The notes under the pieces were generated by a model that worked only from the letters and a program-made list of their open reading frames with translations, did no database searches and was not told the DNA's origin. From Phoronis australis (lineage: Eukaryota > Animalia > Phoronida): a DNA stretch of 64,000 nucleotides. The DNA lies in the NCBI GenBank assembly GCA_002633005.1, contig NMRA01000238.1, positions 186,001-250,000 on the forward strand, written 5' to 3'. Of this stretch, positions 37,701 to 62,800 are shown piece after piece; position 1 is the stretch's first letter, and every line of letters starts with the position of its first letter. Made by a program: the position numbers and the translations under genes.

Positions 37701-39356
37701 AATTTCGAAAATATAATTTCTTTGGTAGGGATCACTAGGGGATGTTGTAAAACGAAAAACAATCTTCGTAAAAATTGTTCGCCGATAAAAATTAAAGGTA
37801 CGACGTGACTTTCCAACAATCAAACCGGTATAACAAATTTTATATGAGGAATCATTGAACACTTGGTAAACCAATACGTACCACACATCTGCACCGTTCG
37901 GTTTCCTACGTCACTCTCTTTATAAACGACGTGCAGATGGCGCTCCTGCCCATCGGCGTCTGTCATCTCTTTATGAGGCGTAATGTGGAAAGTTTCGTTC
38001 CCAGAGCTGAACATGCCACTGCAAGAAAAAACGAAGTGACTACTGTTAACGGATTGTAGTACAATGGGTATCAAGGTTCACTTCGAAGTTACACTCCCAT
38101 TTTCTGATATACAGAATTGGGGTTCGTCTGAAGAAAACAACCTAAACCAAAGACAAATTGTGCAGTTTTTGCTTTAAAAATTAAATTTAAGGTAAAACTT
38201 AAAATGATGTCAAGACTTTGTTCCAAGAACGAGGTCTTCAACCGTGTCTATTTAAATTTGTAGTAAGCACCACCTACTGACTTCCTGGAGTATTGTGTGT
38301 ACCAGTAAATTCACGACAAACAATTTGTTAGTAAATTGCGGTTTTAAAGAAAGCACTACAACTGATACACTTAAAAAGTGTGAGCATATAAAAACCATAG
38401 TAATTCAAAATATTACGCAATCGTTATTTGATAGTGAAATAAACAAATAATAAAAACTTTGCCTTGTTTCATTAGGGTAACAATGAAATATTACCATACT
38501 CATTTGCATAAAAATAGTCTGGCAAGACAAGACTTTCGCGAGATTGCAATGATAACTGGTTCTCGGATGGTTTTCGGCACACTGGAGGATCAGAGGTTGT
38601 TTGTAAATTAGTATTTCATATGAATATTCACAATTTAATGAGACTATGCATCTTTAAGTTTCTCGTAAGTTTCCGACCCAAGTATGTCTTGGCGGAGTTT
38701 TCTTCAGACAAGTCAGACAATATACAAATAAATACCACAATACACCCAGAGTTAAAATTGTGTATGGTGGAATTATTTAGTTTCCATAAAATACTATTCA
38801 CGAACACCGATTTTGGAGATGTATTGAATTTTATAAATTGAAAATATGATATCTAGCAAAAATGGATGTCCTATTTTCGTTTTAGAAATTAGAGACATGA
38901 CACCAGATTTTCAATTTTCGATTTGTATTAACGGAAGCTCAGACTTCATTGTGGTCCGAGACGGAATGCGGCGTGACTCTAAGTATTCTTTCAAGACTAA
39001 CCACATCTCTGTCAATCTGGACCTAGGTAGGCTTATGGCAATGGTATGCACTTTTTTGTAACTCTTCTTCATCGTGATTCGCAAATTGATGTTTCCCTGT
39101 ACTCACCTGATGATGGCTTTTAGTTAATAAACTGAAACGTCGTGACTATGGTTATTTTATTATTTTTGAGATGATGGAATGTAGAATATTACTTGATTTA
39201 GGTATGCATTATTCAAATCAGATCCAACTCCGAATAACTCTGATAACTTTTGATCAAATAATTGAGTGGATTCATTAGACAAGACAAACATTACGCATAT
39301 CAATCAATCAATCAATCAATCAATCACTCAATTAACCAACCAACCAATCAATCAAT

Positions 39357-39406
<50 letters not shown>

Positions 39407-41641
39407 TCATTTATTTTAGTGACCTGTAGCAATCGCTACCCAGCCACAACTTGAGTTTATAAGTCACCATTTCCAAAGAGAACGTACAAAGTATAGACAA
39501 GGCATACATGTACACAATGACAAAAAGAAAATCAGACCAACCTTCTCAATCATTATTAATTAACTAGTAAATAACAGCTTTTTTCGCCTGAGAAATGCAT
39601 TATGAATAAAGGTGATAACTAATTTACTCACAATGGTGTCAGTCATCAAGAAAATTTAATGACAATAAAATGAACAATCATGTTAAAAAATAAAATATAA
39701 ATGATAGTATCAGGGAGTGAAAGACTTGTCCACGTGACCCATTAAAAACAATATAATGAATAAAGAAACGTGAGAACGCTCAAAACATACACATTACTGA
39801 TATTAAAAGTAAAAAATATGCGCAGACTTTAACAGAAACATTACTAAGGAGACAGGATAAAATGAATATATAAATAAGTAAATATATCAAACCACATCAA
39901 TAACAAAAAATAAATACATAAAATCATCAATGAAAATAGCAAGGACCAAAAGTACTTAGAGAAGCAAATGCATGATCATTTAATTCATGGAATGACGTCA
40001 GTAAAGAACTAACGCTGAATTTGACTAAACAAATGCCATTTGTCTAGTAATTTTTGAATTACAAGGCAACGGCATTTCTTAAAAAACATTTCCCGATAAT
40101 ATTCAGTGTTTCTTGGAACGGATCCCAGTAGCCGGTTGCATGAAACAGTCCCAAATAAGGACTCAACTAAGATCCCTTTTTGTGTATTTGTGTCTTTAAG
40201 GACAAGAAGATGCCATATTTTTCTATCATTTCATCTTTATTGTGAGCTCCTCTTTTATTAATGACATTTTCTAATAATATAACTCAAAACTGAGCCCAAA
40301 GTTCATTGAAAATATATAGGGACTCAGTCCTTAAATTGGGGGTGTTGCATGAAAAGATCCCTAATTACTTTCGAAAATATTGACAATTCAACGTAGAGAT
40401 CACTCTCTATTTGCATCCAAATCAAAAGATGACTTAGTAATGAAACTAAAACAATACAAGAAAGGGCAATCGATGCTTTCACAAGTCCAAAAATACGCAG
40501 TAGATTTAGGAGACTTAGTTGACTCCCTATTTGGGAGTGTTTCATACAACCGGGCACAGGCTTCCATTCATGACCTACACGTTGCAGTTAAGCAATGCTC
40601 GTTGTCTAGTCACACGTGTCCATAATTGATTTTATTGCTGGTAAATAACATTAACAGGTATTTTACTCTTATGTAATGTTTTGTACATCATCAATACCTG
40701 TAGAACAATACGCTGGGACAAACACTGGAGCAATTATTGGTGATTTTGTAATAATCTTTGAATAATTTATGTAACATTTAAGACTACCAAAATAGTACAA
40801 CATTGCTGACTATTCTTGAAACATGCCAAGACGTGACAATCGGATTACCTCAAGATCTAACTGCTGCCTGGTGGTTTGTTAATTGGACCAATCATGTTGT
40901 ACACCCAGCAGAAGTAATGTGGAACATATTATTGGAACACTGAAAACGTTTTTAAACGTTTTCAGTGTTCTTAAAAGAGATAAAAGTCACATTTCTTGTT
41001 AAATTTTCAAAATCCAAAAACCTAATCACGTGTGCTTTTCACAAACTATTCAAATATGCTATTTACAAACTTTCAAAACGAAAATTCAAAAATACTATTG
41101 TCGTCCCTAATGTGTTTAGAGAACCATAACATCACCAGACTGATGCGATTTAATTAACTACAACAGCACGGTGTCTTTGATCTGAACCGGCAGATTCTGT
41201 GTTGCGCAAACAAGTCGAGTGCCTATAGCCCCAACTGGCTAAGGTGTCAACGTAGGTTACTGTTCTTGTATGATATTGTAATATCCCCTCCTGGTCACTG
41301 TTATTACTAGTAGGCATTGACATACGTGACGTCAGTCTTAACATGACGACAGATAAGAGATGACTTACCTAAGTCCCTTGCATGTACTCAAAACAACGCT
41401 TGACACATCATGACCACGAACTTTTCCGTGATAGTAACAATGTTCTGGCTTAACCTGAAACACGCATTGTCATTGATGGCGGTTAGATAAGAGACTATTC
41501 ATGGTTGGTAGCAGTAAGAAAAAATGTTAAAATAGTATCAAGTCTTGTGGACAGCACCAGTAATTACTTTGATTAATTACCACGTCTTTGTACGCGTCGT
41601 GTCTCTTCACTACTTATGCATTTGTCGATGAGAGTGTTGTC

Positions 41642-41683
<42 letters not shown>

Positions 41684-44292
41684 GACAACACTCTCATATA
41701 TATATATATATAAATAAATAAATAAATATATATATATATATATATTTATTTATTTATCTCACATATCACTAATTACTCATTATGTGTCACGGCGATGTCT
41801 TGTGATCACGTGCTTTAGTTTGTTGTTACATGACGTCATAATTATATTTACATTAAGCGTACCTGCGCCGGTCAAGCGACAACATTTTTCTAGACAAAAT
41901 CCTCAATATCACCGTCATTTAAAGCAAAGCCATATCTGTTTTGTTTTCGTTTGATTTGAAAATATAGATTTTGACAGGATCATGATTTTGTTGGGGAAGT
42001 TATCGATGTGATTAACCTGTTTCTAATGACCCTGGATTAAAGATAACGGTCTCATCACAATGCATCGGAATTTTCATCGGTAAATGTTGGTTATTAGATC
42101 ATGATCGTTTTAGGGAGTAAAATTGTTTTTAGGACCGAAGTCATGTACGAAAGATTTGGTAGTCCTGGTGAACAATTTGCTACCGTACACGGGAATTTAT
42201 TCCACCAGGTAAACAAACCGTGAAAAAAACGAGTCCACGACTTCGTCCACTGTCTTGAATATTTTTTTGTAATTTGGTAGAGCAAACGAACCGATTCACG
42301 TGCGTTTCCGTGTAAGTGGACGGGAGAGTGAGAACAGTTTAAGGTTGCCGACTAGACTGTTAAAAGGTTGTTATTATGCCGCATCCGAAATATTCAACAT
42401 TATGACAAGCTCCCTTTTTTGAGAACCACGTGTGCTTGAATTAGGAGCGCATTTAAAAACGCCGATGATTTCAGTACTAATTCCGTAATTTGCAAGACCA
42501 GACATGCTTTCACAGTACACTCCAAAGGCCAATAGTCATGCTGTTAATTAGCCGACAATACAAAGAAAAAGTCTTTAAATTACTGTAATTAAACTCTTAC
42601 TTCCATTACAATTGCAAGCTGTCACGAGCGCCGATTTCTACGGTACCGGCTGACCAGCGAAGCCGTGATCCGGAGGACAAAATTAGCTTAATGACAAACG
42701 AATGATAATACCCTAGGGATCAGATGGGTGCAGATGCAATGCATGTGTTTGTATATTGTGTTGCTTTGTAGAATGAATAAATGCACTAATTCTTGTACTG
42801 AATTAAAACGAAAGAAAAAGAACAGAATGAATGAAGTTAAACTGAAATGAACAAAGAACGACAACGTTGAACCTTTGGTATTATGAGAGGCGATATAATG
42901 TACCTGCTTTCGAACAGTGTTTCCGTTTTCGTCGTCAAAAATTTCCATGAACTTCTGTCCAATTAAGTTTCTGAAAGAAGAATGGGACATTCTTTATGAA
43001 GGAATCACGGATATCAAATTTCCTATGGAATGGGGCTTGAATAGCGCTTGGTATCCGGGAACTGTAGGACTCGCCTTAGGTAGAAAAATGCAAAATTAGT
43101 GAAACCCAATTCTTCAGCCCACTAAAACCTCAGCAAGATTTGTTGTGACGTATATTGTCACACTCGACAAAAACTGTCGTACAGGGGACATCTACCTTAT
43201 TGGTTACGGGCGTTTAGAAGAAAAGCATTATAATAATGTGCTTGCAGAAAACTAGGCCACCAACTTGACCAATATTACTATTTTTCATAAGCGCGCGAGC
43301 CACTCACTCGCTTTTTGTTGTTGACAAAGTGCGAAAAAACGGGTGTCGCTAGTGAATTTTTTTTATTAGAAGCTCGTTTTGCTGGTTACTGGATACTAAA
43401 GAAACACTCCAATGTGAAACCAGTTTGTATAATTTGTTGTGCACTTACGAAATCTTATGAAAAGAGAGTATTTTGTTGAAAAAATATGCAACAGGTAGCG
43501 CTCTATTTCTTAGGTGGCCCATACATCTACAATCGACCCGTTAATTGGCTGCAGAATGATGGAATAATGGCATTGTAACCAAAAGGCTTTGTCTACATAG
43601 GCAATCGCAGATACCTTGGTTATCAGTTGAGATTTCAGATTTATAAAGAATTACCATAAAACAGAGTGTTGAAAATATTGAAACTCACTTGTTAAGTTGT
43701 AAGTCAATAATAAACTCTTGATGGAATACCGGGATAACAAAGCTAACGCCTTCTGCGTGGTTGTATTCGGTTTCTTTGGTTGACAAGTCGCGGCGCCGCC
43801 TGTTGCCAACTAATCTGTTTGGCACCACAATATCATGAGCAAAGTCGTAATCGGAAGATTCTGCAAAATCAGATGTAGAACATATTTAGTTACGTACTAG
43901 TGCGGAAAAAACGAAATTATTCCCGATGTTTTTATCTTTATTCAGCGTAATAGACTATGTCAACTGATTATGCTCTGTTTGACTAAGGAAAATATACTAC
44001 AGTTTTAAGTGAACAGAACGTATTAAATTTTTGGTCGTCAAGAGTTGTGGCCTGGCTCGATGGCTTAGTCTTCTTGTATTTTGTCATTGTGACAAGCAGG
44101 GGTAACTTTGCTTTCGCGAGCACGCGCACATAAAGATAAAACCACTCACCAATTACAAGTACATACAATGGAGTTTAATTCAAATTTCTGTACAACGTAG
44201 CTACCTTCGGACAGAACGACTATTTCTTCTCCTGTAGCAGCCTCGAGTAGCCCCAGAAAGAATACTACGGTCATACAACATCGGCAGAACAT
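19436..44292 (-). CDS. ADAM-A: ADAM metalloprotease (signal-pro-M12B-disintegrin-Cys-rich-EGF) with C-terminal Ly6/uPAR domain and predicted GPI signal; multi-exon, ~800+ aa
   Basis: 20 GT-AG exons, phase-consistent except across the N gap: 44205-44292, 43689-43860, 42904-42970, 41369-41454, 37882-38018, [missing exon, likely in gap], 36185-36265, 34983-35051, 34647-34819, 33859-33940, 33565-33698, 32657-32816, 32259-32435, 30356-30406, 29225-29288, 27453-27561, 26519-26656, 23344-23503, 23008-23083, 21621-21733, 19436-19705; zinc motif HEMGHNLGMQHD and CIM Met-turn. Confidence 0.9.
20195..20441. repeat. ~35-bp minisatellite (gtcagtgtctgcaacatgggtagcggctagtcaa), ~7 units
   Basis: Visible degenerate tandem units. 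Confidence 0.85.
20458..20673. mobile_element. MITE, CATGCGCGCAC-TIR family (TSD aaccg/aatcg)
   Basis: catgcgcgcac...gtgcgcacatg; 5-bp flanks with one mismatch. Confidence 0.75.
20816..21310. repeat. ~49-bp minisatellite (agaccaaattagaccatgctttctctatgtctaagttttctaggtctat), ~10 units
   Basis: Visible tandem units in the intron between the two LU exons. Confidence 0.9.
21621..21733 (-). CDS. ADAM-A exon: first half of LU domain
   Basis: ttttcag|(T)SKLVDCYGCSDDDKCALTPNSTSANKEKCQSNSQICT|gtaagt; phase 1 in, phase 0 out. Confidence 0.88.
23008..23083 (-). CDS. ADAM-A exon: end of EGF-like domain
   Basis: TCGNSGKCACTGDYDPGTNCETVID; ends phase 1, gtaagt donor. Confidence 0.88.
23344..23503 (-). 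CDS. ADAM-A exon: end of Cys-rich domain/start of EGF
   Basis: AGSADFGKDTKESGMVSEGTKCAEGKWCKNAQC...VCAGHG. Confidence 0.9.
23539..25953. mobile_element. Kolobok-like non-autonomous DNA transposon (degenerate copy) with nested LINE
   Basis: ttaa|aggagaatac...atggcattctcct|ttga ends; body homologous to 46641-48197. Confidence 0.75.
24326..25485 (-). mobile_element. 5'-truncated non-LTR retrotransposon (RTE-X-like ORF2 C-terminus) with a (TATG)n tail
   Basis: ORFs 24968-25483 and 24646-24993: LCYGAEIWG, HIKFCKRILG, GECGRFPL, LRCSNHSLLVERGR, EDEYHV; absent from the sister element near 47385. Confidence 0.85.
26519..26656 (-). CDS. ADAM-A exon: Cys-rich domain
   Basis: DIMCGKLQCGHPDSGVVLPIIG...YNC. 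Confidence 0.9.
27276..27437. mobile_element. Fold-back MITE with ~50-bp imperfect TIRs
   Basis: ttcacgcactcgccat..gtgagcctctttttaggttt ... aaacctaaaaagaggctcac..atggcaagtgcgtgaa. Confidence 0.65.
27453..27561 (-). CDS. ADAM-A exon: Cys-rich domain
   Basis: ATVGDPFCYDYVNKKGNQFGHCGQKADGSYTACT. Confidence 0.9.
28670..29130 (+). mobile_element. Penelope-like element remnant (GIY-YIG endonuclease end plus decayed 3' repeat)
   Basis: GVMYHI...LYIGETERP...SAAFDH...WFERGVREALWVKAKNTSLNR, frameshifted. Confidence 0.7.
29225..29288 (-). CDS. ADAM-A exon: Cys-rich domain
   Basis: AYCLTGTCRHKDAQCKYMFGE. Confidence 0.9.
29908..30160. repeat. (CAC/GAC/CAT)n trinucleotide low-complexity tract
   Basis: Directly visible; explains the poly-T/V/H ORFs. 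Confidence 0.9.
30356..30406 (-). CDS. ADAM-A exon: disintegrin end/Cys-rich start
   Basis: CPEDKYKADGTPCKNND. Confidence 0.9.
32259..32435 (-). CDS. ADAM-A exon: disintegrin domain
   Basis: ECPTVDPCCEVKGCKLK...GECCSGCKLKPRGTVCRNATSDCDIEDVCTG. Confidence 0.93.
32657..32816 (-). CDS. ADAM-A exon: catalytic domain end/disintegrin start
   Basis: SFTQCS...CLNDKP...PVCGNQIKETGEECDCG. Confidence 0.93.
33565..33698 (-). CDS. ADAM-A exon: zinc-binding active site
   Basis: VMAHEMGHNLGMQHDDGRTC...GGCIMSA (HExxHxxGxxHD plus Met-turn); absent from the ORF track because it is short. Confidence 0.95.
33859..33940 (-). CDS. ADAM-A exon: catalytic domain
   Basis: GIDLTGGVAGLGYVGTMCGPLSCAINE. Confidence 0.92.
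34647..34819 (-). CDS. ADAM-A exon: catalytic domain
   Basis: FYKSLNMRVVLTGVENWSKEDKI...DYDVAQLV. Confidence 0.92.
34983..35051 (-). CDS. ADAM-A exon: catalytic domain
   Basis: WQANPTLQKMRERTIQVANTMDE, phase 0/0. Confidence 0.82.
35791..36164. mobile_element. MITE with AGG.CCGTC.CGGATTAC TIRs
   Basis: aggaccgtcccggattac...gtaatccgagacggccgt; sister copy 55793-56131. Confidence 0.7.
36185..36265 (-). CDS. ADAM-A exon: start of catalytic domain
   Basis: IRSSVSQFNQDVATRYVEVYIVNDYRT (reprolysin RYVE..IV.D). Confidence 0.9.
36341..37323. other. Assembly gap (983 N), probably hiding one ADAM-A exon
   Basis: Upstream exon ends phase 1, downstream exon begins phase 0. Confidence 0.95.
37882..38018 (-). 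CDS. ADAM-A exon: prodomain with candidate cysteine switch
   Basis: GMFSSGNETFHITP...HLHVVYKESD...QMC(G). Confidence 0.88.
39300..39403. repeat. (TCAA)n microsatellite, possibly the tail of an adjacent LINE
   Basis: Directly visible. Confidence 0.9.
39404..40900 (-). mobile_element. Highly decayed L1/Tx1-like 3' fragment
   Basis: Minus-strand AATAAA followed by (TTGA)n tail; LIWDC remnant resembling the HLFWDC zinc knuckle near 40150; boundaries approximate. Confidence 0.3.
41369..41454 (-). CDS. ADAM-A exon: prodomain
   Basis: VKPEHCYYHGKVRGHDVSSVVLSTCKGL (classic ADAM propeptide motif). Confidence 0.93.
41628..41745. repeat. (TA)n microsatellite inside a near-perfect palindrome
   Basis: atgagagtgttgtcgtgtgt-(TA)n-acacacgacaacactctcat, followed by more TA/TAAA. 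Confidence 0.85.
42904..42970 (-). CDS. ADAM-A exon: prodomain
   Basis: NLIGQKFMEIFDDENGNTVRKQ; phase 2 in, 0 out. Confidence 0.85.
43689..43860 (-). CDS. ADAM-A exon: prodomain N-terminus
   Basis: HDIVVPNRLVGNRRRRDLST...FVIPVFHQEFIIDLQLN. Confidence 0.88.
44205..44292 (-). CDS. ADAM-A first coding exon: signal peptide
   Basis: MFCRCCMTVVFFLGLLEAATG-EEIVVLSE; acceptor directly before ATG; phase-1 donor matches the next exon. Confidence 0.75.
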
Positions 44293-46199
44293 CTTTGGAA
44301 AAGAAAATTCAAGCATATTGATCAACATTGTCAGAACAACGCAGTATCTTAAGCAATCGGGGAAATGTAGACAATACCAGTTACAGACAAACACTGTGTA
44401 CACAATATGACTTTCGGCGATGGTTCTCCAGATCGCAAATAAGACTTTCGTTTACCTACTGGATAAATTGCTAATAGCCACCCGAGTAAAATTCCATGCT
44501 AGCTTAGGGGGACAAATCGCCCCCCCCCCCCCNTCGCCCCCCCCCCCCCCGGCGATCGTTGCCACGATTCTGCTAACCCCTATGGAATAGAAATGACGTT
44601 GGCGTAACGGGATTTCGGATTATCGGCACTTCGATATTTAGAACATTCCCGAATCTATTCAGTTTCAAAATCATTTACTACAAAAAATACTGTATTCAGG
44701 CAAATCCAAGTACAATTTATTGTACCGTGTAAAACCACACACTGAGGAAATTAGGCGTACTCGCCACATCTCATAATTAAAGATTTAGAGAGACTCATCA
44801 ATTTATTTTGTTTGTACAAGATCTATATTGTGGTAGTTGTTATTGCAGTGATATTAGTTTTAATAATTTTAACGAACATTGTGATATCAGTCAGCCATTC
44901 AAATAAATTGAATACCAACAACATACGCTTGTCTCATACACCATCGTAATACAAATCAAATGTCATTTTATTCAACAATATCAACCACAAAATTACACCA
45001 CGCTGTACTAAAACGATGGTTCCAAACAAACGTGTTAAGGTATTCAGCGAAAACAGTGAGTTTTACAAATATACGCTTCAGGAAGCCACTGGCTGAATGT
45101 GTGTCCGGCAACACTGCTAGATACTTACCTTTATATGTTATTACTGAACGAACTTCCCTACTGACCACTACAGACGTAATCACGGTCCTGTCGTCAAGTG
45201 GACCACTCACTGGACAGCACACAGAGAGGTGCATTCATGTACAGGATTTTATCATCAAGTCTTAGTTTCTCCTCTAAGCACTTCTTTGTATATTGGAAGC
45301 ATAAAATCAAATGAGAAGTATCCCCTCGTGTTGTAAAGCTGAATGCGACAGTTAAAGAAAGTCTCTATTATTGGGCGGTCGAGTGCAAACAATTGCCTTT
45401 GAGAAGAGTGTGCTGTTGTCAAAGGCGTCGTTAACACAAACAATAACAAGAATTGGATAGTTTTGATCGACAACATTGGACAGAATTAGGGTAACTCCAA
45501 ACATGTTAGATTTGAATACAACCTTTCAGAGATGTACCACTGACAATATGCGATTTTCTTATACCTGTGCAGATCAGGTGATTCTGTAAGCACCGGTGAG
45601 AAACAACATGACCACAGCTGACTCAAAACACGACGACACGGCAGAACTGGACCGCGTGTAAAATTTTAAGTTGTGAAATAAAGCTCATAGTAATAAATCC
45701 AGAAACACTCAGTATCTTAATTCCAAAAGTTTACACGGACTTCAACTGCATTTTCAGACTCAACGGGAAGTCAGCTTTCGACCTTGAGTTCACGCAAAAT
45801 GGACGAAACCAGCAAGTGCCATGTTATGCACTTGAAGCTCCGGTTACGAGCAAAAACTTTTTTCAAACATTTTTAGAGTATCCCAATCGTTTAAATAACT
45901 TGAGATGCCAGGCAGTTTTATTCTAGCTGGTTTATAAAGGATATGTATATTACGCCCTTGCAGCATTCATCAAATGGTCCAATATATGTATTAGCAATTC
46001 GATGAAGAACAAACACAAATTGCAAGTATTTTTCAGCTGATTTAGGCTCAGACAGAAATAATATTAAGATCCAAATTAGTTTGAAGGTTTCAGTGTTGGC
46101 AGAACAGCTATACTGAACTTTTTAAAGGAACATTGTCGAAACGAAATTTTCCGAGATAAGCCTCAGGTGGGAATGCCATCAAGTTACTGTAGCGCAAGT

Positions 46200-50238: not shown

Positions 50239-50514
50239 TCATTGATGTATGGCAAACAAAAACACGAGTGCTAACATTGGAATAGTATTCCTGGCACCAC
50301 CAGTTTGGTAACTGATCCCAACATTTTCGCTACCAGAGGGCGTTGTCGAAAAGAAGTTTGCGTCCCCTGTATTACAAAGACTGGAAGAACAGCACGTGGT
50401 GCACTGGTTGAAGCTTTGGCTGGTCACCAGACACTGTTCTTGGCAAGCGGATTTGTAGACACAACCTCGAGAGTAAAACGGTTTTGAACCTTGTCCGCGC
50501 TCCAGCTTTACAAC
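50239..50514 (-). CDS. ADAM-B terminal exon: LU second half plus GPI-signal-like tail
   Basis: VVKLERGQGSKPFYSRGCVYKSACQEQC...CTTCCSSSLCN...TGGARNTIPMLALVFLFAIHQ*. Confidence 0.88.
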   Translation of the reverse strand, partial: VVKLERGQGSKPFYSRGCVYKSACQEQCLVTSQSFNQCTTCCSSSLCNTGDANFFSTTPSGSENVGISYQTGGARNTIPMLALVFLFAIHQ

Positions 50515-53500
50515 CTGAAAAAGGCCGCTGTCTTTGTTTAACTGACCATTACACTGACAACTTGACAAGCAGCGGGAGTTGAACACTACTCGCGAACATA
50601 AGACAGCGTGCGACCTACGGAGGTCTACGGACCCCTCTCCATTTCATATGGCTATGAGCTTTCGTTGGATCATAAATTTTCTAAAGCGCCATGATTCGCC
50701 AATAAATGACTACTAATTGATACCAGGGGTGCAACAACGTCGGGTATCAGGGTTACATCATTATTTTTTACAGGTTTGGTGACGCCACGCAAACAACAAT
50801 TCTAATTCAGCAATACAAAGCAAAACTTTACAAGAGCAACGTAAAAGTTGAAATGCGCCCGCGACTGCACCACAAACGGTATGCTTCTGAACTGTAGAGA
50901 TGTTAAATAGTATATCTAAAATAACATACTATGTCCAAAAACAGGAACGCGTGTTAGAGTCCTTTTTATTAAAATCAAAACTTCATCAAAGCTTATCTCA
51001 CTATGGAACGAAGCGGTGGTTGGATTGGTCTGAAACTCGTCGTCGTCAGTTGTCAGCTTCATAGGAACACATCTGTCAAATCTCATCAAGACGTTGCTAG
51101 GGGTTTCATAGATACAGCACCACACGCCACACGCCAGACGTCCAGGCATAAGTCAGTGGAGGCAGTATGCACCCACATATATTTTTGTGGGCGCATTAAC
51201 AGTGTTGGTAGCTTTACGTTTTAACTTACCACTAAATCAAAGTAAAAATTTCAACAAATGAATAAAGAGTGACACAAAAAGGACACATGGCTAGGTAGGC
51301 CTAAACAAATTCGTCTATTGGTTGTGTCGGACGCGGGGTACATTAAAATTGCCCTACACCGTCAAATACCTCTCTGGCACGTTTCAATGGAATCCTTCAA
51401 TTGGTTCTCTAGATATTACCCGGAAACTCCTTCAAATATACTTAAGCAATACCAGAATGATCTTTATGGGGTACTGTAGCAATATAATCCACCTGGAATC
51501 GATTGGTGCCGGTGCATTGCCGTCGCATACTATTCATCAAGTTATATGGACATCCGTTGATCGGTTTCCTGCCTATCGCTCGGAAACGCTTTTCCCAAAA
51601 GTACTGGAAGCCCCTTTGTCGGTGGAGACCTAAGTTGGAACTAAAAGGTGCTGCAGTAATCCAATCCACCCCCAAATTGACTGGTGCCAGCAATTCGCCG
51701 TCATGTACCTGTCTTAAATTGCATTGTTCTCTAGTCTATATTAGATTTATTATAAAATAATTGATGCTTTGTTCCTCAGAATTTTTCGTCTCTCATTACA
51801 TTGACATGTTTTATACTTGTTTAATGTACATGTACAGTCCAGTCATCGTCTAATAGTTTGGTTTGCACGGTCAAGGGATTGTGGTTTCTCAAGCTTGCTG
51901 TTGGTCAGATCAAGAATAGCGGGCGGAATGACTGGAACACCACATTCCAATGGCCAGGCCGTCAACAGTATCCTGTTCTTCCCGGGGCAAGTGCTTCATG
52001 GGGCCATGCAATAAGACGACCCTGACACGAGGGATACTTACTGTACAAATCTGACTGTTGGATGAACATTTCTGTTTACTTGCTGTCGTAGAGTTTGGAG
52101 ACAGGGCGCAATTATCGTCGTCGGAACAGCTATAGCAGTCGAGAAGGTTGGCGGCTAGAAAAAAGTCTTGCAATGAGAAAATAGTGTATATAACACAAAT
52201 GTTATTGTTGTGTTCGTAACATAACATTAACATTACGAAATGTTCACACTACTAAATTATCTGATAAAGCAAACTTACAGTCAATTTTGGTCTCACAATT
52301 GCTGCCGGGATCGTAGTCACCTGTACAAGCGCATTTACCGGATTGGTCACACGACTGAAATAAACAAAACAAATTCTCTTTAGCTCTTTCCGCTTTTAGC
52401 CATTCACCAATTTTTATACCCCTACATCAGTAATCGGATCGGTTCAAAACTCGACATATATGGGAGCATGCAATTGTCACAACCCAAAGGTTTTTATTAC
52501 TACAGGTGTGTTTGCATAAAAAAGCTCAAAAGAGTTACTTTTTCAAGAAAGATTCCTAAACATAGTTCACATTCTTCTAACCCATTTCCTAAATGGATGT
52601 AAATAATGCAGATGTGTACTCCCTGTAAATAGGAATGTGTGAACGTTTTGTAATTTCATATTGTATATTTTGTTTGATCACATGATGTTGTATACTTGGT
52701 TTCATGACCTGTATTTTTTCATTTCAGGTGATGTTCTTTGTAATTTGCATCTCTACACACTATGGAAGGCCATTACACACAGCTGTGAACATTTTTTTTC
52801 ACTGTTGAAACCTGACCACAAAGGTGTCATCATATTTCAAATCTTTAGAAAATTAGATAAGCTTTCACAAGCACCATCGTTGCTCTTTAATGCTCAGTAA
52901 AACCCTTACCCCGTGCCCGGCACACTCTTTTCCATTTACAATAGCGCACGTAGGAACTGTGAACGCCACACACTGTTGATTCTTACACCACTTTCCTTCA
53001 GCACATTTGGTCCCGTCCTTCACCATACCTGCCTGTTTAATGTCCTTTCCAAAATCAGCTGTCCCAGCTCTGAGAAAGGCAAATGCCTCTAAGTTTACAT
53101 TGTAGCTAGTCCAAAATGAATGCGCGTGATAATTCCCAACTTCCACCGTGAACACATGTTATTACGAGGTTTCCCTTTGATGACCAAAGGTTTGTTTTAC
53201 AAAACAATTGTACTATCTTACAAAACATGGTCACCCATCTGGTTTTCAAGGCACAGCTCTAAACTATGTCTCGTATCTGCAATAAACTTTTCAATTCTGA
53301 AGGCCAGTATAACATGCCGTTACTTGTTGAACTTCACATGTGCTGTATTTGGCAAGACTTGTCTGCATATGGGGATGCTTTGTTGTTCTCTACATGTATA
53401 TATGTTCTAAGACTAAGCTCCTATGCCTGGCACGATGTTCTACTCTACTTGTGACTTGTACTCGAGATGTGAAAACGTTGTGAGACTCAGTTGCATAGAG

Positions 53501-53780
53501 GACTGCTGTACTTCGCAGGTACATTTCCCTCATCAAGAAAAACGGTGAGTATGTAGAACTTACTTGCAATTGTATTCTTTTGGCACCCCGTTGATAGTCT
53601 CGGTGTAAACGAGTAAGGTTCCTGTACTCGATGTACCGATGACAGGCACAACGACACCAGGATCGCTGTGTCCACACTGAAGCTTACCGCACTTAACGTT
53701 TCTGGAATAAACCAGGATGTAGAAAAATCCTCCTGTTCTTTTAAAGACTGTCTGATGTCAATAACATCATATAACATAAC

Positions 53781-53820
<40 letters not shown>

Positions 53821-56800
53821 ACATACACACACNCACACACACACACACACACACACACCCACACACACACTTGTATAAAATTTCTGGAATGTTTCTGAAT
53901 GGAGACATAGGTCATAGACATTTCCAACACGTTTGTAATGTTAGCCTCAAAAGGTTCGTACATGCTGTGTTATCCCGTAGTTTTGACAATTTATAACAAG
54001 TTTGTAAACGCCCTCTATAGGTAGAACAGAAACAGAAGTAGACGAGAGTACGCTCATTGTCAATAGAGGCAGTAAGTTGTTCTAATGTACTACTGGTCAG
54101 CGTAGAATTAACTTGTCAATAAAAATGTCACCAGAGTAATTGTTTTTATCTGCATTTAATAAATATAGATTATTACATGACGAAGTCGTTATCCCCCGTT
54201 ATGCAGAGCCCGAGTGGATTTTGGAGAATTATCGGCCGAGGGGCGTTAGCCCCGAGGGTGATAATTCTACAAAATCCACGAGGGCTCTAGATAAGGGGGA
54301 TAACGACTGAGAACATGTAATAATCTATTTATACCACATACTGAACGAGAAACATTGCATCCTTTCTCGACTCGCCTCGGCTTTGTAACTACTCTCTATG
54401 TCAGAGGCCCGGGGTCGGAGGTCGTGACCGTTTAAGAAAAGCCGAGCTATTTTTGTCAAATAATGCTTTTACTCAAAGCATATTGAAAATTTAAACAAAA
54501 TAGAAATAAAGTGAATCTATAAATTAAGGTTTAGCAACTATTATAGCTTACAACACATTTTTTCACGCTAAGCTTCGACCGGGAAAATATCGTCTGCTAA
54601 AGTAGGTTACCACTAGTAACTGACTATGATGCTCAAGTCAAAGGATCCCGACGACACGATACCCGCATTCAAATTTGAGATCGGTGATTTACAAGTGAGA
54701 GAACACGAGAGAAAAATTTCACTGAATTAAAATATCGTTTTTATGGAAATTATGCGTCTTATTTTTCACAGCGTATAAATGTCTGTGCAATGCCCTTTGC
54801 TGAACATGCGATTGTTGCGCGTGCTCATTCAAGTATTCTATTTTCACGTTCGACGACGTCAGCCGCTCAGTGGTGTAGTGGTAAAGTCGGCGACTCGAAA
54901 TTTTGAGGCCTAGGTTCGAATCCGGCTTCGGTTTCCTGCCAAATTGTTATCTCACTAGTGAGATAACTTTATGGGTTATTACACGGTTTTATCTGCCATT
55001 CGAGGCTAATATTGTGGTATAAATGTTGGTACAATGCCCTTTGCTGAACATGCGATTGTTGCGCGTGCTCATTTAAGTATTCTATTTTCACTTTCGATGG
55101 CGTCAGCCGCTTAGTGGTGTAGTGGTAAAGTCGGCGACTAGAAACTCTTGAGGCCCGGGTTCGAAACCCGCCTCGATTTACCGCCAAAATGTTATCTCAC
55201 TAGTGAGATAACTAAATGGGTTATTACACGGTTGTATCTGCCATTCGACGCTAATATTGTGGTCGCAAGTTATACTATGATTTTTGATCATGCGCACTTA
55301 CCCGACAGAGCACTTCACGTATGCGCCGGATGATAGTTGTCCACAATGACCATATTCGTCTCCTATCTTGTTGACTTGTTCAAAGCAATAGTCATCGGCA
55401 TTAGTAGCATCTGAAAAATAACGATTATAAGCTATTAATAATCTGATACAACGAATGATTCCACATATAATTAAATTAGAAGCACAAAATGCTAATAACA
55501 AGCCAGTGTTTCATTTTTAAATCAACTCCAACACACAAAAACGCTCCGACAGCATTTTTGTAGAGCGGGAAAGCGTCCGACAGCGTTTTTTTATTTTTGT
55601 TTAAGTCGAACGGGAAATTGTGGGTGCCAAAAAAACCCATAGAAAGCCCAGTTTTTTCTTTTTAGTCGACGGAAAAGTTGACCTATGTCGCTTGGGAAAT
55701 TAGAATAGTTTACGATAATATGTCAATCAAGTTCGCCGTATGTCAAAAAGCGGGACATTTTGGTGGAATTCAAAAAGTGCGACAGTCAGTCAAGGACCGT
55801 CCCGGATTACACGGCAATGTTTTGGAAATCAGGCACATTTTCATGTCTCTCATTGGTGTCGGGAAGGCGAAGAATATTCACATCACGCACAAGGGTATTT
55901 GTCCAGTTTATAAAACTTTCTCACGCCGGAGTTGCAACCCAGAGCAGAGCAGTAATACTTTATTAGCGTTGCTGGGACGAATAGAGTAATGCAACCGAGA
56001 AAAGCATATAAATAATCAGACAACAAGTAACATGTGAAACTCCAATGGCACAAAAACGAGGCAGCAAATGTGCCTGACGGATGTTTACGGCATTGTTACA
56101 GCGAGATTCGAGTGTAATCCGTGACGGCCCTGCAGATGCAACGTACGCTATCAGTAACACGAAATATTGGATCGGATTCTTTCACGGGTACAGGTAAATA
56201 CTACAGATAACATCATTGCACAGAAATCCAATTAAAAAGTATATGGGTAACAGGTAAACATTGCACATACGAATTACTGTAGAATTCCATGATAGCAAAT
56301 AGCAGCATATATTAAAGAAAACAACAACGGTTTTAAGACTTGACATGTTTCGGTGTCATTTATTCAACACAATATTCAGAAGTGAGAATACAGTGGCCAC
56401 CTAGCTAGGCCCAGCAACAAGTAATGAAGAGCAGATACCGTCAGTTACAGGGAGTGACAATGAACTGGACCAACAATGACAACCTGTGGTGTGTCAGTTG
56501 CCTATTGAGATTGGGCTTGCACCAACTGATGTGTAAAGCCTCACGAATTTTAAGCTCCTTTGTTGTTACTGCCTGGTCTATTACTGCAAAGTCATTGAAA
56601 GAGCACTGCTGATAACAATGACTGGAGCTTTGTAGGTGAAGATTTACATGTGAATTTCTGTCAGAATTTAGATCTTCCAATCATTGTTATCAGCAGTGCT
56701 CTTTCTATGACTTTGCAGTAATAGACCAGGCAGTAACAACAAAGGAGCTTTAAATTCGTACGGGCCAGAAACTACTTCCCGTATTTGAATGATGACGTCA

Positions 56801-59800
56801 TTCCAATACGGGCCAGATTCCAATACGGGTCGGAGCAAGACTTTACACATCAGTTGGTGCAAGCCCAATCTCAATAGGCAACTGACACACATCAGGTTGT
56901 CATTGTTGGTCTAGTTCATTGTCACTCCTTGTAACTGACTGTTTCTGTGCTTCATTACTTGTTGCTGGGCCTAGCTAGGTGGCCGCTGTATTCTCACTTC
57001 TGAAGATGGTGTTGCCGAATAAATGACACCGAAACATGTCAAGTCTTAAAACCGTTGTTGTTTTCTTTAATAATTACTGTAGAAACGATATAAAACAATA
57101 ATTATATTTGCATATACATACACTCACACACAAACGCACACGCACGCACACACATACACACACCAAACACGCACGTGCACGCACGCACGCATTTAGCTGC
57201 GCAAATAAATACAGGAGTAGTTACGTAAAAACACCTGTTCGTAGAGTCTAAAGTTTTCAATAATTACAGAACAAACACTCAGAAACCAAATGTCAATTCT
57301 TAAAGTAAAACACTGTAACCCCATCAGTTGTGTAGTTTGTTAGGTTGTCGAAAAAGTCTCTATGAATGAAACTGAAAAGATATCAGAGGCCACATTATTC
57401 CTGGCATCCAGGGGCACAGGGGGTTTAAAGAATATAACCAGTGTAATTGTCGCGTTTGTTGACTAATTATGCCGAGAAATCCGTGGCACACTCGATCGAA
57501 ACTCAATTGAGACAACCGGCAATTCACAGTAAAAACTCTCGCGTGTAATCTTGGGGTCGCAAGCGGGTCACGTGCGGGAGTTAGCATTCCATTTCAAGAA
57601 CTCTATTAAAATTTGGTCACGTCAGACGCCATGTAGCTACTGATAGTGAAATCAAGAGCGCTCGCTCTGTAAAACCTGTTCAAGAAGAGAGCGCTTGCGG
57701 CGCTCCACGCCTTGGACAGGCTTCGGTACTGGCACAACAGCTACACTTCCAATGTTAAACGTAAGATTACTCACTGGCGCCAAACATGTATTTGCATTGC
57801 GACAGCCTGGTTTTGCAAGTTCCAGTGACGCAGTAAGCCTGAAACGGAGCAACGTTCTTTAATCATTTTGAAAATATATAGCTCTAAATATATTATGGCT
57901 TTAAACGGAGTGGATATGATTGGTACCAGTCTAAATCAAATTGTTACTTCCTTCCTAATTAGGGCCTCGGAAATCACCATGAAACTTGTCACTTCAACCA
58001 AAGAGAGTGGCTTCTAGCCCTTACATGCCATACAAACAACTGGGTAGCACCAGAAAGTCAATTCAGCTATTAAATTTAGCCAATCAAGATGCGAGAAAAT
58101 GTAAATGCTACGATGGTCCACCTTAGTTATTGCCCACAAACATTCGTTGCTAACGAAAGTGAAAAGGTGGTTTTTCGATGAGCTTGGAACTCTAACACTG
58201 CAGATTAACAATTGGGCAACACGAAAAAGAAAAAAGTGCCACAGAGATTTAAAAATCATGTTGCATATCCCACGGCAAATTGAAAAATGGCCTGGAAACA
58301 TACGTCATTTGCCAAACTGAAATTGAAATAAGTTCAACCCCTAACGTTTCACAATACATATTTCCTTTTTTACTGGTGTATGATGTGAGTTAGGCTACCA
58401 ATCAAATACGTGGTATTTTGGTGGCAGCACATGTGACTTCCGGAAACGCAACTCTCCTACAAGACGCGTGTATTCATATTCTCGTGCATCAGACCATCAT
58501 CAGTGCATCAGTGGCCTCTAACAAAACTTCATGGTGTCTAATGTCGTGAAAACATTTTTTTTCTATTCGTCATTAGAGTTTGGAGTAGATTATAAGAGCT
58601 GGCAGCCCTTTGTGTCGTCGAATTTAAAATGTAGTGCAATAACGAGCAATCAAGACAGAGATATTAATTGGATCTGATATCTGAATGAGGCTCAGGTGAT
58701 ACGAATGGATTCAGTAATCTGTGAATGGGTTCGATTATGGGAAATCATAGAAATTCCGTTAGGTGTATAAAAATAATTGCAGGTGGTCTGGTACACGTTG
58801 TACCAGACGTGTGCAGGGTGCTCATGTGGCCCTATTTCACTGATCACCTAGAGCCATTTTTAACATATAGGTAAAACTGAGCTGATGATCTAGAGACCTG
58901 ACTCAGGGGTCTAGCAGTGGGACTCGAACCCACGACCTGGAGAAAAAGGAAGCAACACTTATCCCACTAGGCCACACTGCCTCCTTTGCCTTTATGTGTA
59001 ACTGGAACATTTTAAATTAACATTTTTTCCAGCAGGGCCCTTTGTCTTTGTGTGGCTCCTTGTCGGTAGCAGATTCGTGAAGTATTATCGGGAACAAATA
59101 GAAAACTTGTGTTGCTGTCGTGCGTATGCAGAGAACTGCGCTTGTGGGACTTCATATGGTAACTATGGCGCACCAGGCTATGTGCCCTAACTATATTTGT
59201 CGGATCTATCTATTGGCATTATTTCTGAAGCTTTTGATATTAGCTTTTAACATCTCATACTCTGAATGATCTTTATGATAAGGAGAACTATTTGTTATGG
59301 TGTTACAGAAATTCGAAACAAATTTTCAGTGGTTGAGTAAACTAAACATAACTAATGTAGTATAGATAGCAAACAAGAAGAAAATGCCTGTTCAACAGGC
59401 AAATGAGCACATGTTATCCTGCCATAAAACTCGACTTATATCAAGGCTTGGTAAGTTTAAGACATTACTTAGAGATGATTCAAACTACGTCCATGGAATG
59501 AATAAACGTTTCCAATATTCATAGTGAAAGATTCTCTTTAAAATAACTATAATAATTAACGAGCTTATAACAGTATTCTAGTTCTGTTACTATTACTAGA
59601 CTTTGTATATGAACCAGTTAAACTTACAGAGTTATTACCGCACGCTGCTCCATTGGGCTTGTACTTATCCTCGGGACACTGTAAATGGACAAAATTTCTG
59701 TGTTACACAAGGAAGGTCTTTTAAGCTCTAAAAAACCAACAGGTTAAAGGCCAAATATTCCATATTCTGGTGTCAAAAACATTTTTTCACAGGTGTAATG

Positions 59801-62800
59801 GTTCTTCCGAAGCATCGTCTTTGTCCTGAGTTGCAACTGGTCACAATGAATTTCCAATAAACCGCCGGAAATTCCACTGACAGTTATCAAGAGCTTCTAT
59901 GGCTGAAACTAACTCGTCGTGACAAGCAACGTGATGATTTAGGTCTTTGAGGTGATGTCGAACGTAAACACGTTTGTAACCTTTAGTGATTAACAGGAAA
60001 GTGTCGATGTTGCAGCAGTGGCCTAAGTGAGAAGTTCGTTTATCTCATAGATGGCGCGGCATCATTACAGGTTTTATACAATGTAAACGTCGTTGCGTAC
60101 AAATTAACAGTCAATAATGCAGCGATAGACACCAATAGCTCATCACTTACTGTTTGGACATGCGTCCCCGAAGCAATGAAACCGTCAACATCGAACCAGC
60201 AACAAATAGGCACGCACACAAATATAATCCGACACATTTTTCAGCACTTAGTAGATAGATGTGTTTGCACTACACTTACACTCCTGTGTGCCGTGCCTTG
60301 AAACTTTGTCATGGGAGTCACGAAAACCGGCTTCCCCTACCCAACATCATGGTTTTCAAGCGATCCCACTTGCAATGTAAAACTGAACAGTCGATTACTG
60401 TATGAAAGGGTTGGCGTATAAACGCAACTCACATGTCCAGTATCGGTCATAAGGACTACTCAGTTGAAAACGAAAACGGCCGTCAGTCGAAAGATGTTTG
60501 GGACTGGTCCGTTAATGACTTAAAAGTAATAGCTGGATAGAACAAATCAACAAGGCAAGTGGAGATATGTAAGAAGAACCATATATTTGCTATTCGATCT
60601 AAGTTTCATGAACCACTGAGACGAGTGAACAACCATAACATGTGGATTCAAATATTCATAATTTGTGTCACCAAAATTTCCCCTGAAGGGATGAGGGTAT
60701 AGTTGTGCCTATCGAATCCATATAAGTGTGGCTAATGCGGCGGGTGTGGAAAAATAACTTTGGTGCCGTGATCCGAATATACGAAGATTTGCGCACATTT
60801 TTGCAATGTAATTAAAAAAGAAGAAAATTAAACTAGTATTTCTTTTCAACACAACGAACTGAGAGTAGAACAAACAATGCTGTTTGCAAGAGTCTGCCTA
60901 AAAGTACGCACAGCGAAATAATATTTTGCGTTGACTGAGCATCTTTGATTTGGCGCGTCAATTTTTGCAACTATGGTAACGTCCACAGATTCATCAAGTC
61001 ACGTGAAAGAATCGGTCATAAAAATTACGACGTTTAGGATGCTTAGAACTAAACTTTCTAATAATGCGACAGGCAGCACACTGTCACATTGAAAATCAAG
61101 TGATTGTTACTAAAGATAGTTGGTTAAATTGCCACATTGTTTGAATTAAAATTTTTCAATTGTTTTCATGTCTTGTTGATAACCGAAATGCTGAAAATGT
61201 TAGAAAACAATCTCTGACACCCTCATGACGTTGGAGTTTTATGGGAACAGTTATACTGTACCTTCCAAAATTGCAATACACCTGTTGTCGCGAGGGCGGA
61301 TCCAGGATTTTGAGTTGGGGGCAGGGCACAGGAATAACCAGAATTTCGCCACATGCGCGCGTCCAGCCTAAAATGTAGGGATGCAGGGTTCTCTAATATT
61401 TGCGTTTAATTGCGGACCTTATTACTAAAAAAGAAAAAACGTTAAACGGGGTTTGCTCAAGGCCTATGCATTGTGCATTCGCCCCCCACCCCCGAACCCC
61501 CTGCGCGCATATGCTACTCAGCAATTCCCACCCCGAACTCCCAAATGGTATCTGGGAGAATATTAGGGGGGCATGGCCACTTTGGATATGACAATAAGTA
61601 ATCAAATCTCCTCTATTCTGGCAAACATTTTACAGGATTACCCACCGTGTTACTAAAACCAGTGCACATGTCATCTATGTCACACTCGGAGACAGCACTG
61701 CGGCACACACTACCACGTGCTTTCAGCTTGCAGCTAATGCAACAATCTCCTGCGGCGCACTCTGACGACGCTTTAAGCTTACATCCCTTAACTTCACAAC
61801 ATGGATCAGCAGTTGGACATTCCTGCAAAGGAAATGTATTTTGCATTTTTCCCAAATGACCATCGGATTAGAATTGAAACGAAATAACCAGGGGTCAAAG
61901 TTGATCGACAAAATCACCGCCCATGGTCCCACAAGGGCGCTCTTCAACAAAGGTGATGGGAGAAGCATCAGGAGGAGACAAAGCAAAGCATGGTTGCAAA
62001 ATATGACTATTTAATGATACTTCTAGTACCCACGTAACTTTAAGAAGCCAAATGTATCACAGAGGTTATTAGCCTGTTGCTTCAGTTACTTGCTGACATT
62101 GTTTATATAATATTCAGGTATTTTCCATCAGTTACCAACATGCCTTAGTCTGAAACCAGGGATCACTCTCTCCGAACTCGAACACAGTATTCGAAACTGG
62201 TTTTCATGTGTTCCGCTCTACTTTTGTGCGAACTCCGGATAAGTGTCGATTATTCTGTACCCGTGTTTATTACGGTTTACGCAGATGAGAAACACACTGT
62301 TTTGAGATCGAAATTTTTGTTTTGTTTGTTAGAAAATCACCATGTGTGGATATTTTTTTACCGACTTAAATTTTCAATGGCAAACAAGCTAGGCCGGTGC
62401 CGTTTCGTTACGAAGTGCGTTGTCGGTAGCCGTGGCAACATACGGGTGCTTTGCAACAGTTTCACAATTTATTTCTCTCATTAATTAGCCGAATGCCTGG
62501 GTCCTAATGTTGAAATTTGATGTACTTTGGCTGTGAGTCAGGGCACTTAGTGCTGGCTCCGGCCGGTGCGACAAGCAAGTTAGTACAAAATGAACTACAC
62601 AAAATAACTTACAATAATTTTGCACTCAGGTGGTATCAAAACATTTTCAAGGACAACATGGCTGGCATTCAGGAATAGTTCATGAACTAGAAGGAAGTCA
62701 GCTCACAGACATAAACGGGGATAGGCGATGAGCTTCTGATTTCGGCTGAGGTACAAATTTTGTTCAAATGGCTTGTAACTTGATAACAAAAAAAGGGAAC

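What the first reader, a model, noticed from the sequence alone, without database searches (positions are those of the whole stretch)
50239..52354. Paralogue B supports the EGF-LU fusion: only 124 bp separate the two exons
In ADAM-B the intron between the EGF exon (ends 52279) and the first LU exon (starts 52154) is 124 bp, with a GTAAGT donor, a TTCTAG acceptor and matching phase 1. That leaves essentially no room for a TM/tail exon, poly(A) site, promoter and signal exon of an independent Ly6 gene. The LU exons are therefore best read as part of the ADAM, and the same junction is conserved in ADAM-A.
Basis: seen in the sequence. Interest (0 to 1): 0.8.

Follow-up and report, generated by a model that had tools for sequence, protein, structure and literature searches.

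The report
ADAM protease fused to Ly6 domain
Two neighbouring genes likely encode cell-surface zinc proteases of the ADAM family whose usual membrane-spanning tail is replaced by a three-finger (Ly6/uPAR) domain and a predicted lipid anchor, a layout that also appears in protein records of an annelid and a brachiopod and that I found described nowhere.

Summary
Observation confirmed. On the minus strand the EGF exon ends at 52279; a 124-bp GTAAGT..TTCTAG phase-1 intron follows; the first LU exon starts at 52154. Paralogue A has the same junction with a 1274-bp intron. Intron length alone does not prove the fusion, but homologues strongly support it. The window's disintegrin exon and its LU exon independently retrieve the same Owenia fusiformis protein. 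Lingula anatina and an unnamed 909-aa ORF on one 3.9-kb contig (probably a transcript, two LU domains) share the ADAM-EGF-LU-hydrophobic-tail layout, with an invariant 11-residue EGF-LU linker and about 48% identity in both parts. The domain models as a three-finger fold (top hit GPIHBP1). No transmembrane exon or cytoplasmic tail was found; a GPI anchor is inferred by eye. Gene A keeps the zinc motif. RNA from this organism was too shallow to list a junction. Pfam misses this LU domain, and a 2026 survey of LU architectures in 387 invertebrate genomes does not list it. Verdict: an old, apparently undescribed, probably GPI-anchored ADAM-LU subfamily; new variant of a known kind.

The parts
52279..52354 (-). 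ADAM-B EGF exon (76 nt, phase 0 to 1)
52155..52278 (-). 124-bp phase-1 intron joining EGF to LU in ADAM-B; no poly(A) hexamer; in-frame ATG at 52233
52042..52154 (-). ADAM-B LU exon 1 (5 Cys)
50239..50514 (-). ADAM-B LU exon 2 (7 Cys, ends CCxxxxCN) plus Ser/Thr/Gly spacer, GPI-signal-like hydrophobic tail and stop
52910..63233 (-). ADAM-B upstream exons: 63233-63074 (end of catalytic/start of disintegrin), 61822-61646 (disintegrin), 59678-59628, 57838-57775, 55410-55302, 53701-53564, 53069-52910 (cysteine-rich). The 5' part, with the zinc motif, lies beyond the window end
23008..23083 (-). ADAM-A EGF exon (76 nt, phase 0 to 1)
21621..21733 (-). ADAM-A LU exon 1, after a 1274-bp phase-1 intron
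19436..19705 (-). ADAM-A LU exon 2 plus hydrophobic tail and stop; AATAAA at 19265 and 19237
23344..32816 (-). ADAM-A disintegrin and cysteine-rich exons: 32816-32657, 32435-32259, 30406-30356, 29288-29225, 27561-27453, 26656-26519, 23503-23344
33565..36265 (-). ADAM-A catalytic exons 36265-36185, 35051-34983, 34819-34647, 33940-33859, 33698-33565 (HEMGHNLGMQHD and the Met-turn CIM)
   Evidence: Reprolysin E 3e-10 and 2.5e-14
36341..37334 (.). Assembly gap (N) where the last prodomain exon of ADAM-A is expected (about 22 residues ending in the RKKR site in the Lingula model)
   Evidence: inference
37882..44328 (-). ADAM-A signal exon (in-frame ATGs at 44328, 44316, 44292, 44274; ends 44205) and prodomain exons 43860-43689, 42970-42904, 41454-41369, 38018-37882 (ends VQMC, cysteine-switch-like)

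Best explanation
Two tandem ADAM genes here carry an EGF exon followed in frame by two Ly6/uPAR (LU) exons and a short hydrophobic end, and each likely makes one zinc protease that is predicted to hang on the cell surface by a GPI anchor instead of a transmembrane helix and cytoplasmic tail. SHOWN: exon chain, splice signals and phases; signal peptide, prodomain and zinc motif HEMGHNLGMQHD with Met-turn in gene A; a 12-cysteine domain after EGF; no transmembrane exon found; the same layout in three external records. PREDICTED: three-finger fold. INFERRED (odds): splicing of EGF to LU in this organism (0.95); GPI attachment (0.85); catalytic activity after prodomain removal (0.85 for A; B's zinc exon lies outside the window). 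Likely working: the LU module supplies the anchor, so the protease sits in lipid-raft-type membrane, gets no signals through a cytoplasmic tail, and can be released by GPI-cleaving enzymes. The LU domain also likely acts as a membrane-proximal docking site for a partner or substrate (0.5), as the LU proteins GPIHBP1 and uPAR do for enzymes. Likely origin: capture of a Ly6 gene's two LU exons through a phase-1 intron in place of the transmembrane exon, before annelids and brachiopods split; the tandem pair here is a later duplication.
For: Gene structure. Selection on LU exons as strong as on ADAM exons. The disintegrin exon's best hit is Owenia CAH1796798.1, which ends EGF-LU-hydrophobic tail; the LU2 exon independently retrieves the same protein. 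Of the 9 hits, 3 are ADAM-LU proteins (P0004 Owenia, P0011 Lingula XP_013399533.1, P0009), 3 other LU-like sequences and 3 unrelated repeat proteins. P0009 is a 909-aa ORF on a 3886-nt contig, so it is probably spliced cDNA. Identity of B to the three: LU 39/82, 41/81, 39/78; disintegrin + cysteine-rich 108/224, 111/230, 116/233. Eleven residues between the last EGF Cys and the first LU Cys in 5 of 5 proteins, with near-identical Cys spacing. Fold: AF2 pLDDT 85.7; Foldseek top hit GPIHBP1, E 6e-4, TM 0.69-0.72 by target; a profile of ADAM-LU rows only hits uPAR (E 1.2e-5) and LYPD6B; the Atlas's own model of P0004 matches Ly6/uPAR clusters over residues 693-787. The hydrophobic 13-mer ends 0-4 residues from the C-terminus in 5 of 5, against 112 in fugu ADAM9. 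In run X2, gene A shows 317 nt laid in the LU1 bin and 116 + 35 nt in the EGF bins, with zero in the three bins between, which fits one or two spliced reads (arithmetic only).
Against: No EGF-LU joint was listed in 4 of 4 RNA sources for either gene; exon depth was 1.3 or less and about 18-19% of each raw run was read. Run X2 has about 300 nt laid inside the LU1-LU2 intron of B, so unspliced or alternative RNA exists. The B LU1 acceptor is the weakest of 29. The Owenia and Lingula records are gene models, and an older Lingula model (P0018) lacks 11 residues at this very junction, though it is still fused. No GPI predictor was available. My signal-exon scan failed its positive control, so it excludes nothing. 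No evidence here bears on the substrate or on what the LU domain binds.
Confidence: 0.8

Rival explanations
1. Two separate genes: a secreted ADAM that ends by reading into the intron, and an independent GPI-anchored Ly6 gene next to it; gene predictors merged them.
For: Read-through gives a stop after about 11 (B) or 14 (A) intronic codons. B has an in-frame ATG at 52233 before a partly hydrophobic stretch. A's intron has AATAAA at 22009. No junction was listed in RNA.
Against: A single ORF with the junction on a 3.9-kb contig (P0009); invariant 11-residue linker in 5 of 5 proteins; strong EGF donors in both genes (10.2 and 10.8 bits); the ATG and read-through peptides differ between A and B; no poly(A) hexamer in B's intron.
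Confidence: 0.04
2. The fusion is the main product, but intron retention or an internal promoter also gives a secreted ADAM or a free Ly6 isoform (not exclusive of the best explanation).
For: Weak B acceptor; short intron; in-frame ATG; secreted splice forms of vertebrate ADAMs are known (recalled).
Against: Zero depth in bin 52157-52276 in 4 of 4 sources, though at trivial depth; features not conserved in A.
Confidence: 0.2
3. The fusion is real but the hydrophobic end is a short membrane anchor, or the protein is secreted, rather than GPI-linked.
For: No GPI predictor was run; gene A's tail is about 16 residues with one Lys and a less obvious small-residue cleavage site.
Against: The hydrophobic run ends the protein in 5 of 5 records, after a Ser/Thr/Gly/Asn spacer, as in GPI-anchored LU proteins.
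Confidence: 0.12
4. The LU domain is only a spacer and anchor carrier with no binding role, or gene B is a non-catalytic adhesion protein like ADAM22.
For: The closest solved structure by sequence is ADAM22; B's zinc exon lies outside the window.
Against: A, Owenia, Lingula and P0009 all keep the three zinc histidines and Glu; the LU domain is more conserved than the ADAM part between A and B (68/83 against 157/233).
Confidence: 0.3

Closest known systems
Canonical ADAMs of the EGF-bearing type (ADAM9/12/19/22 group, MEROPS M12B)
   Same: Signal, prodomain, reprolysin, disintegrin, cysteine-rich and EGF order; 37-38% identity to fugu ADAM9; ADAM22 best solved relative of the Owenia protein, E 3e-78.
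   Different: ADAMs are defined as type-1 transmembrane proteins (PMC4963849, passages); here LU and a terminal hydrophobic run replace the helix and tail.
GPI-anchored Ly6/uPAR proteins (GPIHBP1, uPAR, LYPD3/C4.4A, LYPD6B)
   Same: Three-finger fold, CCxxxxCN end, terminal hydrophobic signal.
   Different: 12 rather than 10 cysteines; below Pfam detection; covalently joined to the enzyme rather than binding it in trans.
Mouse TEX101/LY6K-ADAM3 complex
   Same: An ADAM and GPI-anchored LU proteins work together; PMC5955741 (passages) reports a transient interaction needed for ADAM3 maturation.
   Different: Separate genes, sperm-specific. Analogy only: orthology and germ-line expression were not tested.
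Non-standard LU architectures of invertebrates (PMC13719153)
   Same: LU joined to other extracellular modules (Kunitz, C1q, fibrinogen, Ig, MAM, thioredoxin, 7TM).
   Different: No ADAM, disintegrin or peptidase partner in its main text; it calls such architectures phylum-restricted, whereas this one spans at least Annelida and Brachiopoda.
Snake-venom PIII metalloproteinases, ADAMDEC1, GPI-anchored MT4/MT6-MMP
   Same: Metzincins that lost or replaced the transmembrane end (SVMP and ADAMDEC1; MMP-25 'potentially GPI-anchored'; MT4-MMP recalled).
   Different: SVMPs lost EGF and are secreted; the MMPs are another family and have no LU domain.

Membership tests
ADAM (M12B) | Signal peptide and prodomain | tested here: met
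   Gene A: hydrophobic exon 1, Pep_M12B_propep E 8e-5 on one exon, 43% to the Lingula model over 156 columns; B's lie outside the window
ADAM (M12B) | Reprolysin domain with HExGHxxGxxH and Met-turn | tested here: met
   Gene A HEMGHNLGMQHD...CIM; not testable for B
ADAM (M12B) | Disintegrin, cysteine-rich and EGF domains | tested here: met
   Disintegrin E 4e-13; ADAM_CR on homologues; EGF by alignment to ADAM9 and ADAM22; the EGF exon alone has no Pfam hit
ADAM (M12B) | Type-1 transmembrane helix and cytoplasmic tail | tested here: not met
   No phase-1 exon with 19-mer hydropathy above 1.68 in the scanned stretches from EGF to 3 kb past each stop; tail of 0-4 residues. So: ADAM-derived variant, not a canonical ADAM
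ADAM (M12B) | Proprotein-convertase site after the prodomain | tested here: inconclusive
   Expected exon falls in the N gap 36341-37334; present in the Lingula, Owenia and P0009 records
ADAM (M12B) | Proteolytic activity | not testable with these tools
   Needs an assay
Ly6/uPAR (LU) domain | Three-finger fold | tested here: met
   Model of the Lingula homologue, pLDDT 85.7, GPIHBP1 TM 0.69-0.72 by target; Atlas model of the Owenia homologue; the window's own spliced domain was not folded
Ly6/uPAR (LU) domain | Ten conserved cysteines with CCxxxxCN end (PMC6337849) | tested here: met
   12 cysteines with the CxxC start and CCxxxxCN end; the extra pair is a variant
Ly6/uPAR (LU) domain | Pfam LU-clan match above cut-off | tested here: not met
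   None for P0004 (E up to 1), P0011 and P0018 (E up to 10); QVR under cut-off for P0009's second LU (E 3e-4) and B's LU1 exon (E 0.13)
GPI-anchored proteins | C-terminal small-residue site, spacer and terminal hydrophobic run | tested here: inconclusive
   Pattern seen by hydropathy in 5 of 5; no predictor, no experiment

The most novel reading that the evidence does not exclude
An ancient, overlooked subfamily of GPI-anchored ADAM-Ly6 proteases, at least as old as the annelid-brachiopod split and possibly bilaterian-wide (the window's pair falls outside the Owenia-Lingula group in a weakly rooted tree). It fuses in one chain the two partners that work in trans in mammalian sperm (TEX101/LY6K with ADAM3), and the LU domain is the exosite that picks the substrate.
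Probability: 0.3. Interest if true: 0.8.

Novelty: new variant of a known kind. Interest (0 to 1): 0.6.

Why it matters
ADAMs are defined by a transmembrane helix and a regulatory tail. A conserved, catalytically intact form with a likely GPI anchor and a three-finger domain gives a natural test of what an ADAM does without inside-out control, and of whether LU domains act as protease docking modules. It also shows a blind spot: the LU domain falls below Pfam detection, so databases call these proteins 'ADAM12-like' or 'uncharacterized', and a genome-wide LU survey that included Lingula lists no such architecture. Owenia and Lingula are workable animals, so expression and anchoring can be tested directly.

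Tried and rejected
No whole genome is held, so B's 5' half and further paralogues could not be seen. No RNA holder was listed. Three raw runs and one contig set were laid on B's 3' end and on A 21320-30020; depth on exons was too low to list a joint, and most reads came from repeats. The word-indexed search with the LU2 exon found nothing among 43 candidates. The search with P0004 560-790 found only itself among 2171 candidates and missed known relatives, so the range is under-sampled. Single-sequence AF2 of P0004 failed (pLDDT 34.2) and was not used. VIA-align jobs did not run. The signal-exon scan failed its positive control and was discarded. The tree (6 rows, one long-branched outgroup) cannot place the window's lineage. 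In one search my script cut P0009's first LU one cysteine short (11 counted); one search shows the twelfth. Three of the nine hits (P0006, P0008, P0010) were unrelated repeat proteins and were dropped. Atlas feature searches gave nothing usable for the LU part and only scores under 0.9 for P0011. Four look-ups of earlier findings returned nothing. No tRNA genes. No complex prediction was run, since no binding between separate chains is claimed.

Full report
OBSERVATION. The window is animal genomic DNA (about 40% G+C) with two tandem ADAM genes on the minus strand. In gene B the EGF exon spans 52354-52279, a 124-nt intron (GTAAGT...TTCTAG, phase 1) spans 52278-52155, and the next exon starts at 52154. 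That exon (113 nt) and the last exon (50514-50239) encode one 83-residue, 12-cysteine domain, a Ser/Thr/Gly spacer, a hydrophobic run and a stop. Gene A has the same junction with a 1274-nt intron. Nine of nine shared internal exons match in length and phase, and the spliced products are 302/433 identical. Between A and B the LU part has pN 0.096 against pS 0.674, and the ADAM part 0.172 against 0.807, so both are maintained coding sequence.

IS THE SHORT INTRON PROOF? Not alone. The intron has no AATAAA or ATTAAA, but read-through stops after about 11 codons, which would give a secreted ADAM, and an ATG at 52233 is in frame with the LU exon. The acceptor at 52154 scores lowest of 29 in a leave-one-out matrix, while the EGF donors are strong in both genes. 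A scan for phase-1 exons with a membrane helix found none above 1.68 mean hydropathy in the scanned stretches from EGF to 3 kb past each stop (33 candidate frames listed). A scan for signal exons failed its positive control and is not used.

HOMOLOGUES CARRY THE CASE. A profile of the two disintegrin exons gave 2 hits among 12 candidates: Owenia fusiformis CAH1796798.1 (P0004) and Takifugu ADAM9. P0004 ends EGF-LU-hydrophobic tail. A profile of the two LU2 exons against 1.84 billion representatives gave 9 hits. Three are ADAM-LU proteins: P0004 again, Lingula anatina XP_013399533.1 (P0011), and P0009, a 909-aa ORF with two LU domains on a single 3886-nt contig. Gene A needs about 25 kb and at least 20 exons, so P0009 is probably spliced cDNA (inference). 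Three hits are other LU-like sequences and three are unrelated repeats. Gene B is 39/82, 41/81 and 39/78 identical to the three in the LU domain, and 108/224, 111/230 and 116/233 in the disintegrin and cysteine-rich part: the two parts have diverged together. The EGF-to-LU linker is 11 residues in 5 of 5 proteins. Against: the Owenia and Lingula records are gene models; an older Lingula model (P0018) drops 11 residues at this junction; and two word-indexed searches missed known relatives, so the range is unknown.

RNA OF THIS ORGANISM. No RNA holder was listed. Three raw runs (about 18-19% of each read) and one contig set gave exon depth of 1.3 or less and no listed joint on either gene. By arithmetic, run X2 has 46 + 36 + 70 nt on B's LU1 and LU2, which fits one spliced read. 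On A it has 317 nt in the LU1 bin and 116 + 35 nt in the EGF bins, with zero in the three bins between, which fits one or two EGF-LU reads. All lie on the strand expected for a minus-strand transcript. The bin inside the 124-bp intron is empty in 4 of 4 sources. X2 also has about 300 nt inside B's LU1-LU2 intron. This is suggestive, not proof.

THE DOMAIN. Pfam finds no LU-clan family in P0004, P0011 or P0018, and only sub-threshold QVR matches elsewhere. A profile of ADAM-LU rows alone hits uPAR (E 1.2e-5) and LYPD6B among solved structures (with two extra LU rows gave E 1e-7). An AF2 model of Lingula EGF+LU (pLDDT 85.7, 11 rows) matches GPIHBP1 first (E 6e-4, TM 0.69-0.72 by target), then C4.4A, TGF-beta receptor II and uPAR. 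The Atlas's own model of P0004 matches Ly6/uPAR clusters over residues 693-787, all under that service's bar for naming a family. In 5 of 5 proteins the most hydrophobic 13-mer ends 0-4 residues from the C-terminus, against 112 in ADAM9: a GPI-signal pattern, judged without a predictor.

HOW IT LIKELY WORKS. Gene A has a signal exon, a prodomain ending in a cysteine-switch-like VQMC (motif recalled), and HEMGHNLGMQHD with the Met-turn. The exon with the convertase site is expected in the N gap at 36341-37334. B's zinc exon is outside the window. I infer a zymogen that is activated in the secretory path, receives a GPI anchor, and cleaves neighbouring surface or matrix proteins without control by a cytoplasmic tail, with release by GPI-cleaving enzymes as a likely off-switch. 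The LU domain is more conserved than the rest between A and B, so I favour a docking role (0.5) over a mere spacer. The origin by capture of a Ly6 gene's LU exons through a phase-1 intron is inferred; that canonical ADAM and Ly6 genes have phase-1 introns at these places is recalled and was not tested. The 6-row tree groups Lingula with P0009 (99/98) and then Owenia (85/95) and leaves the window's pair outside, but its only outgroup is a long branch. The phylum of the window was not determined.

LITERATURE. Ten searches listed no paper whose title or abstract start describes an ADAM-LU protein; I opened six of the listed papers, and most subscription papers are not in the library. PMC13719153 (2026; parts 1-3 of 4 of the text read; figures not seen; supplement unreadable) surveyed 387 invertebrate genomes, including Lingula and five annelid genomes. 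It lists only plain LU and receptor-kinase forms for those phyla, and its main text has no occurrence of ADAM, disintegrin, metalloprote-, reprolysin, peptidase or EGF. Its sequence supplement could still hold these proteins. PMC5955741 (passages): the GPI-anchored LY6K/TEX101 complex interacts transiently with ADAM3. PMC6337849 (passages): LU definition, with TEX101 as a multi-LU protein. PMC4963849 (passages): ADAMs as type-1 membrane proteins. [quoted passage not shown] PMC13425148 (passages): nothing relevant.

VERDICT. Observation confirmed and interpretation supported, mainly by homologues. It works like an ADAM but fails the transmembrane criterion, so I file it as a new variant: a probably GPI-anchored ADAM-LU subfamily found in at least four lineages of records (window, Owenia, Lingula, P0009). 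Interest 0.6.

Noticed in passing
window 16792-18000 (+): Intronless rhodopsin-family GPCR ORF (7tm_1 E 6e-41; GPR19-like by recall), convergent with the 3' end of ADAM-A; a possible synteny marker.
   Followed up: partly
P0009 residues about 674-880: This ADAM-LU record has two LU domains in tandem, separated by a Gly/Asn/Thr-rich linker: the module can duplicate.
   Followed up: partly
P0011, P0017, P0018: Lingula RefSeq appears to split one ADAM-LU gene into two models inside the catalytic domain (315 aa 'ADAM23-like' and 462 aa 'ADAM12-like'); an older 805-aa model joins them.
   Followed up: partly
P0012: A lone 118-aa ORF on a 559-nt contig resembling the LU2 terminal exon; it could belong to another ADAM-LU gene.
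   Followed up: no
window 24600-25500 (-): Degraded LINE-like reverse-transcriptase-end fragment (by recall of the motifs) in an ADAM-A intron, covered by reads of other copies.
   Followed up: no
window 23550-24330 and 46650-47390; 25700-26000, 47500-48170, 35700-36000, 55700-56100: Dispersed copies of non-autonomous elements, some with short CxxC (THAP-like, by recall) ORF remnants.
   Followed up: no
window 56303-57079: Fold-back element with nested inverted arms of 63, 177 and 84 nt (93-96% complementary) in an ADAM-B intron.
   Followed up: no
window 54773-55263; 20816-21303; 20214-20442: Tandem pair of about 245-nt tRNA-like SINE copies (not called by ARAGORN); 49-nt and 34-nt minisatellites in the last intron of ADAM-A.
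   Followed up: no
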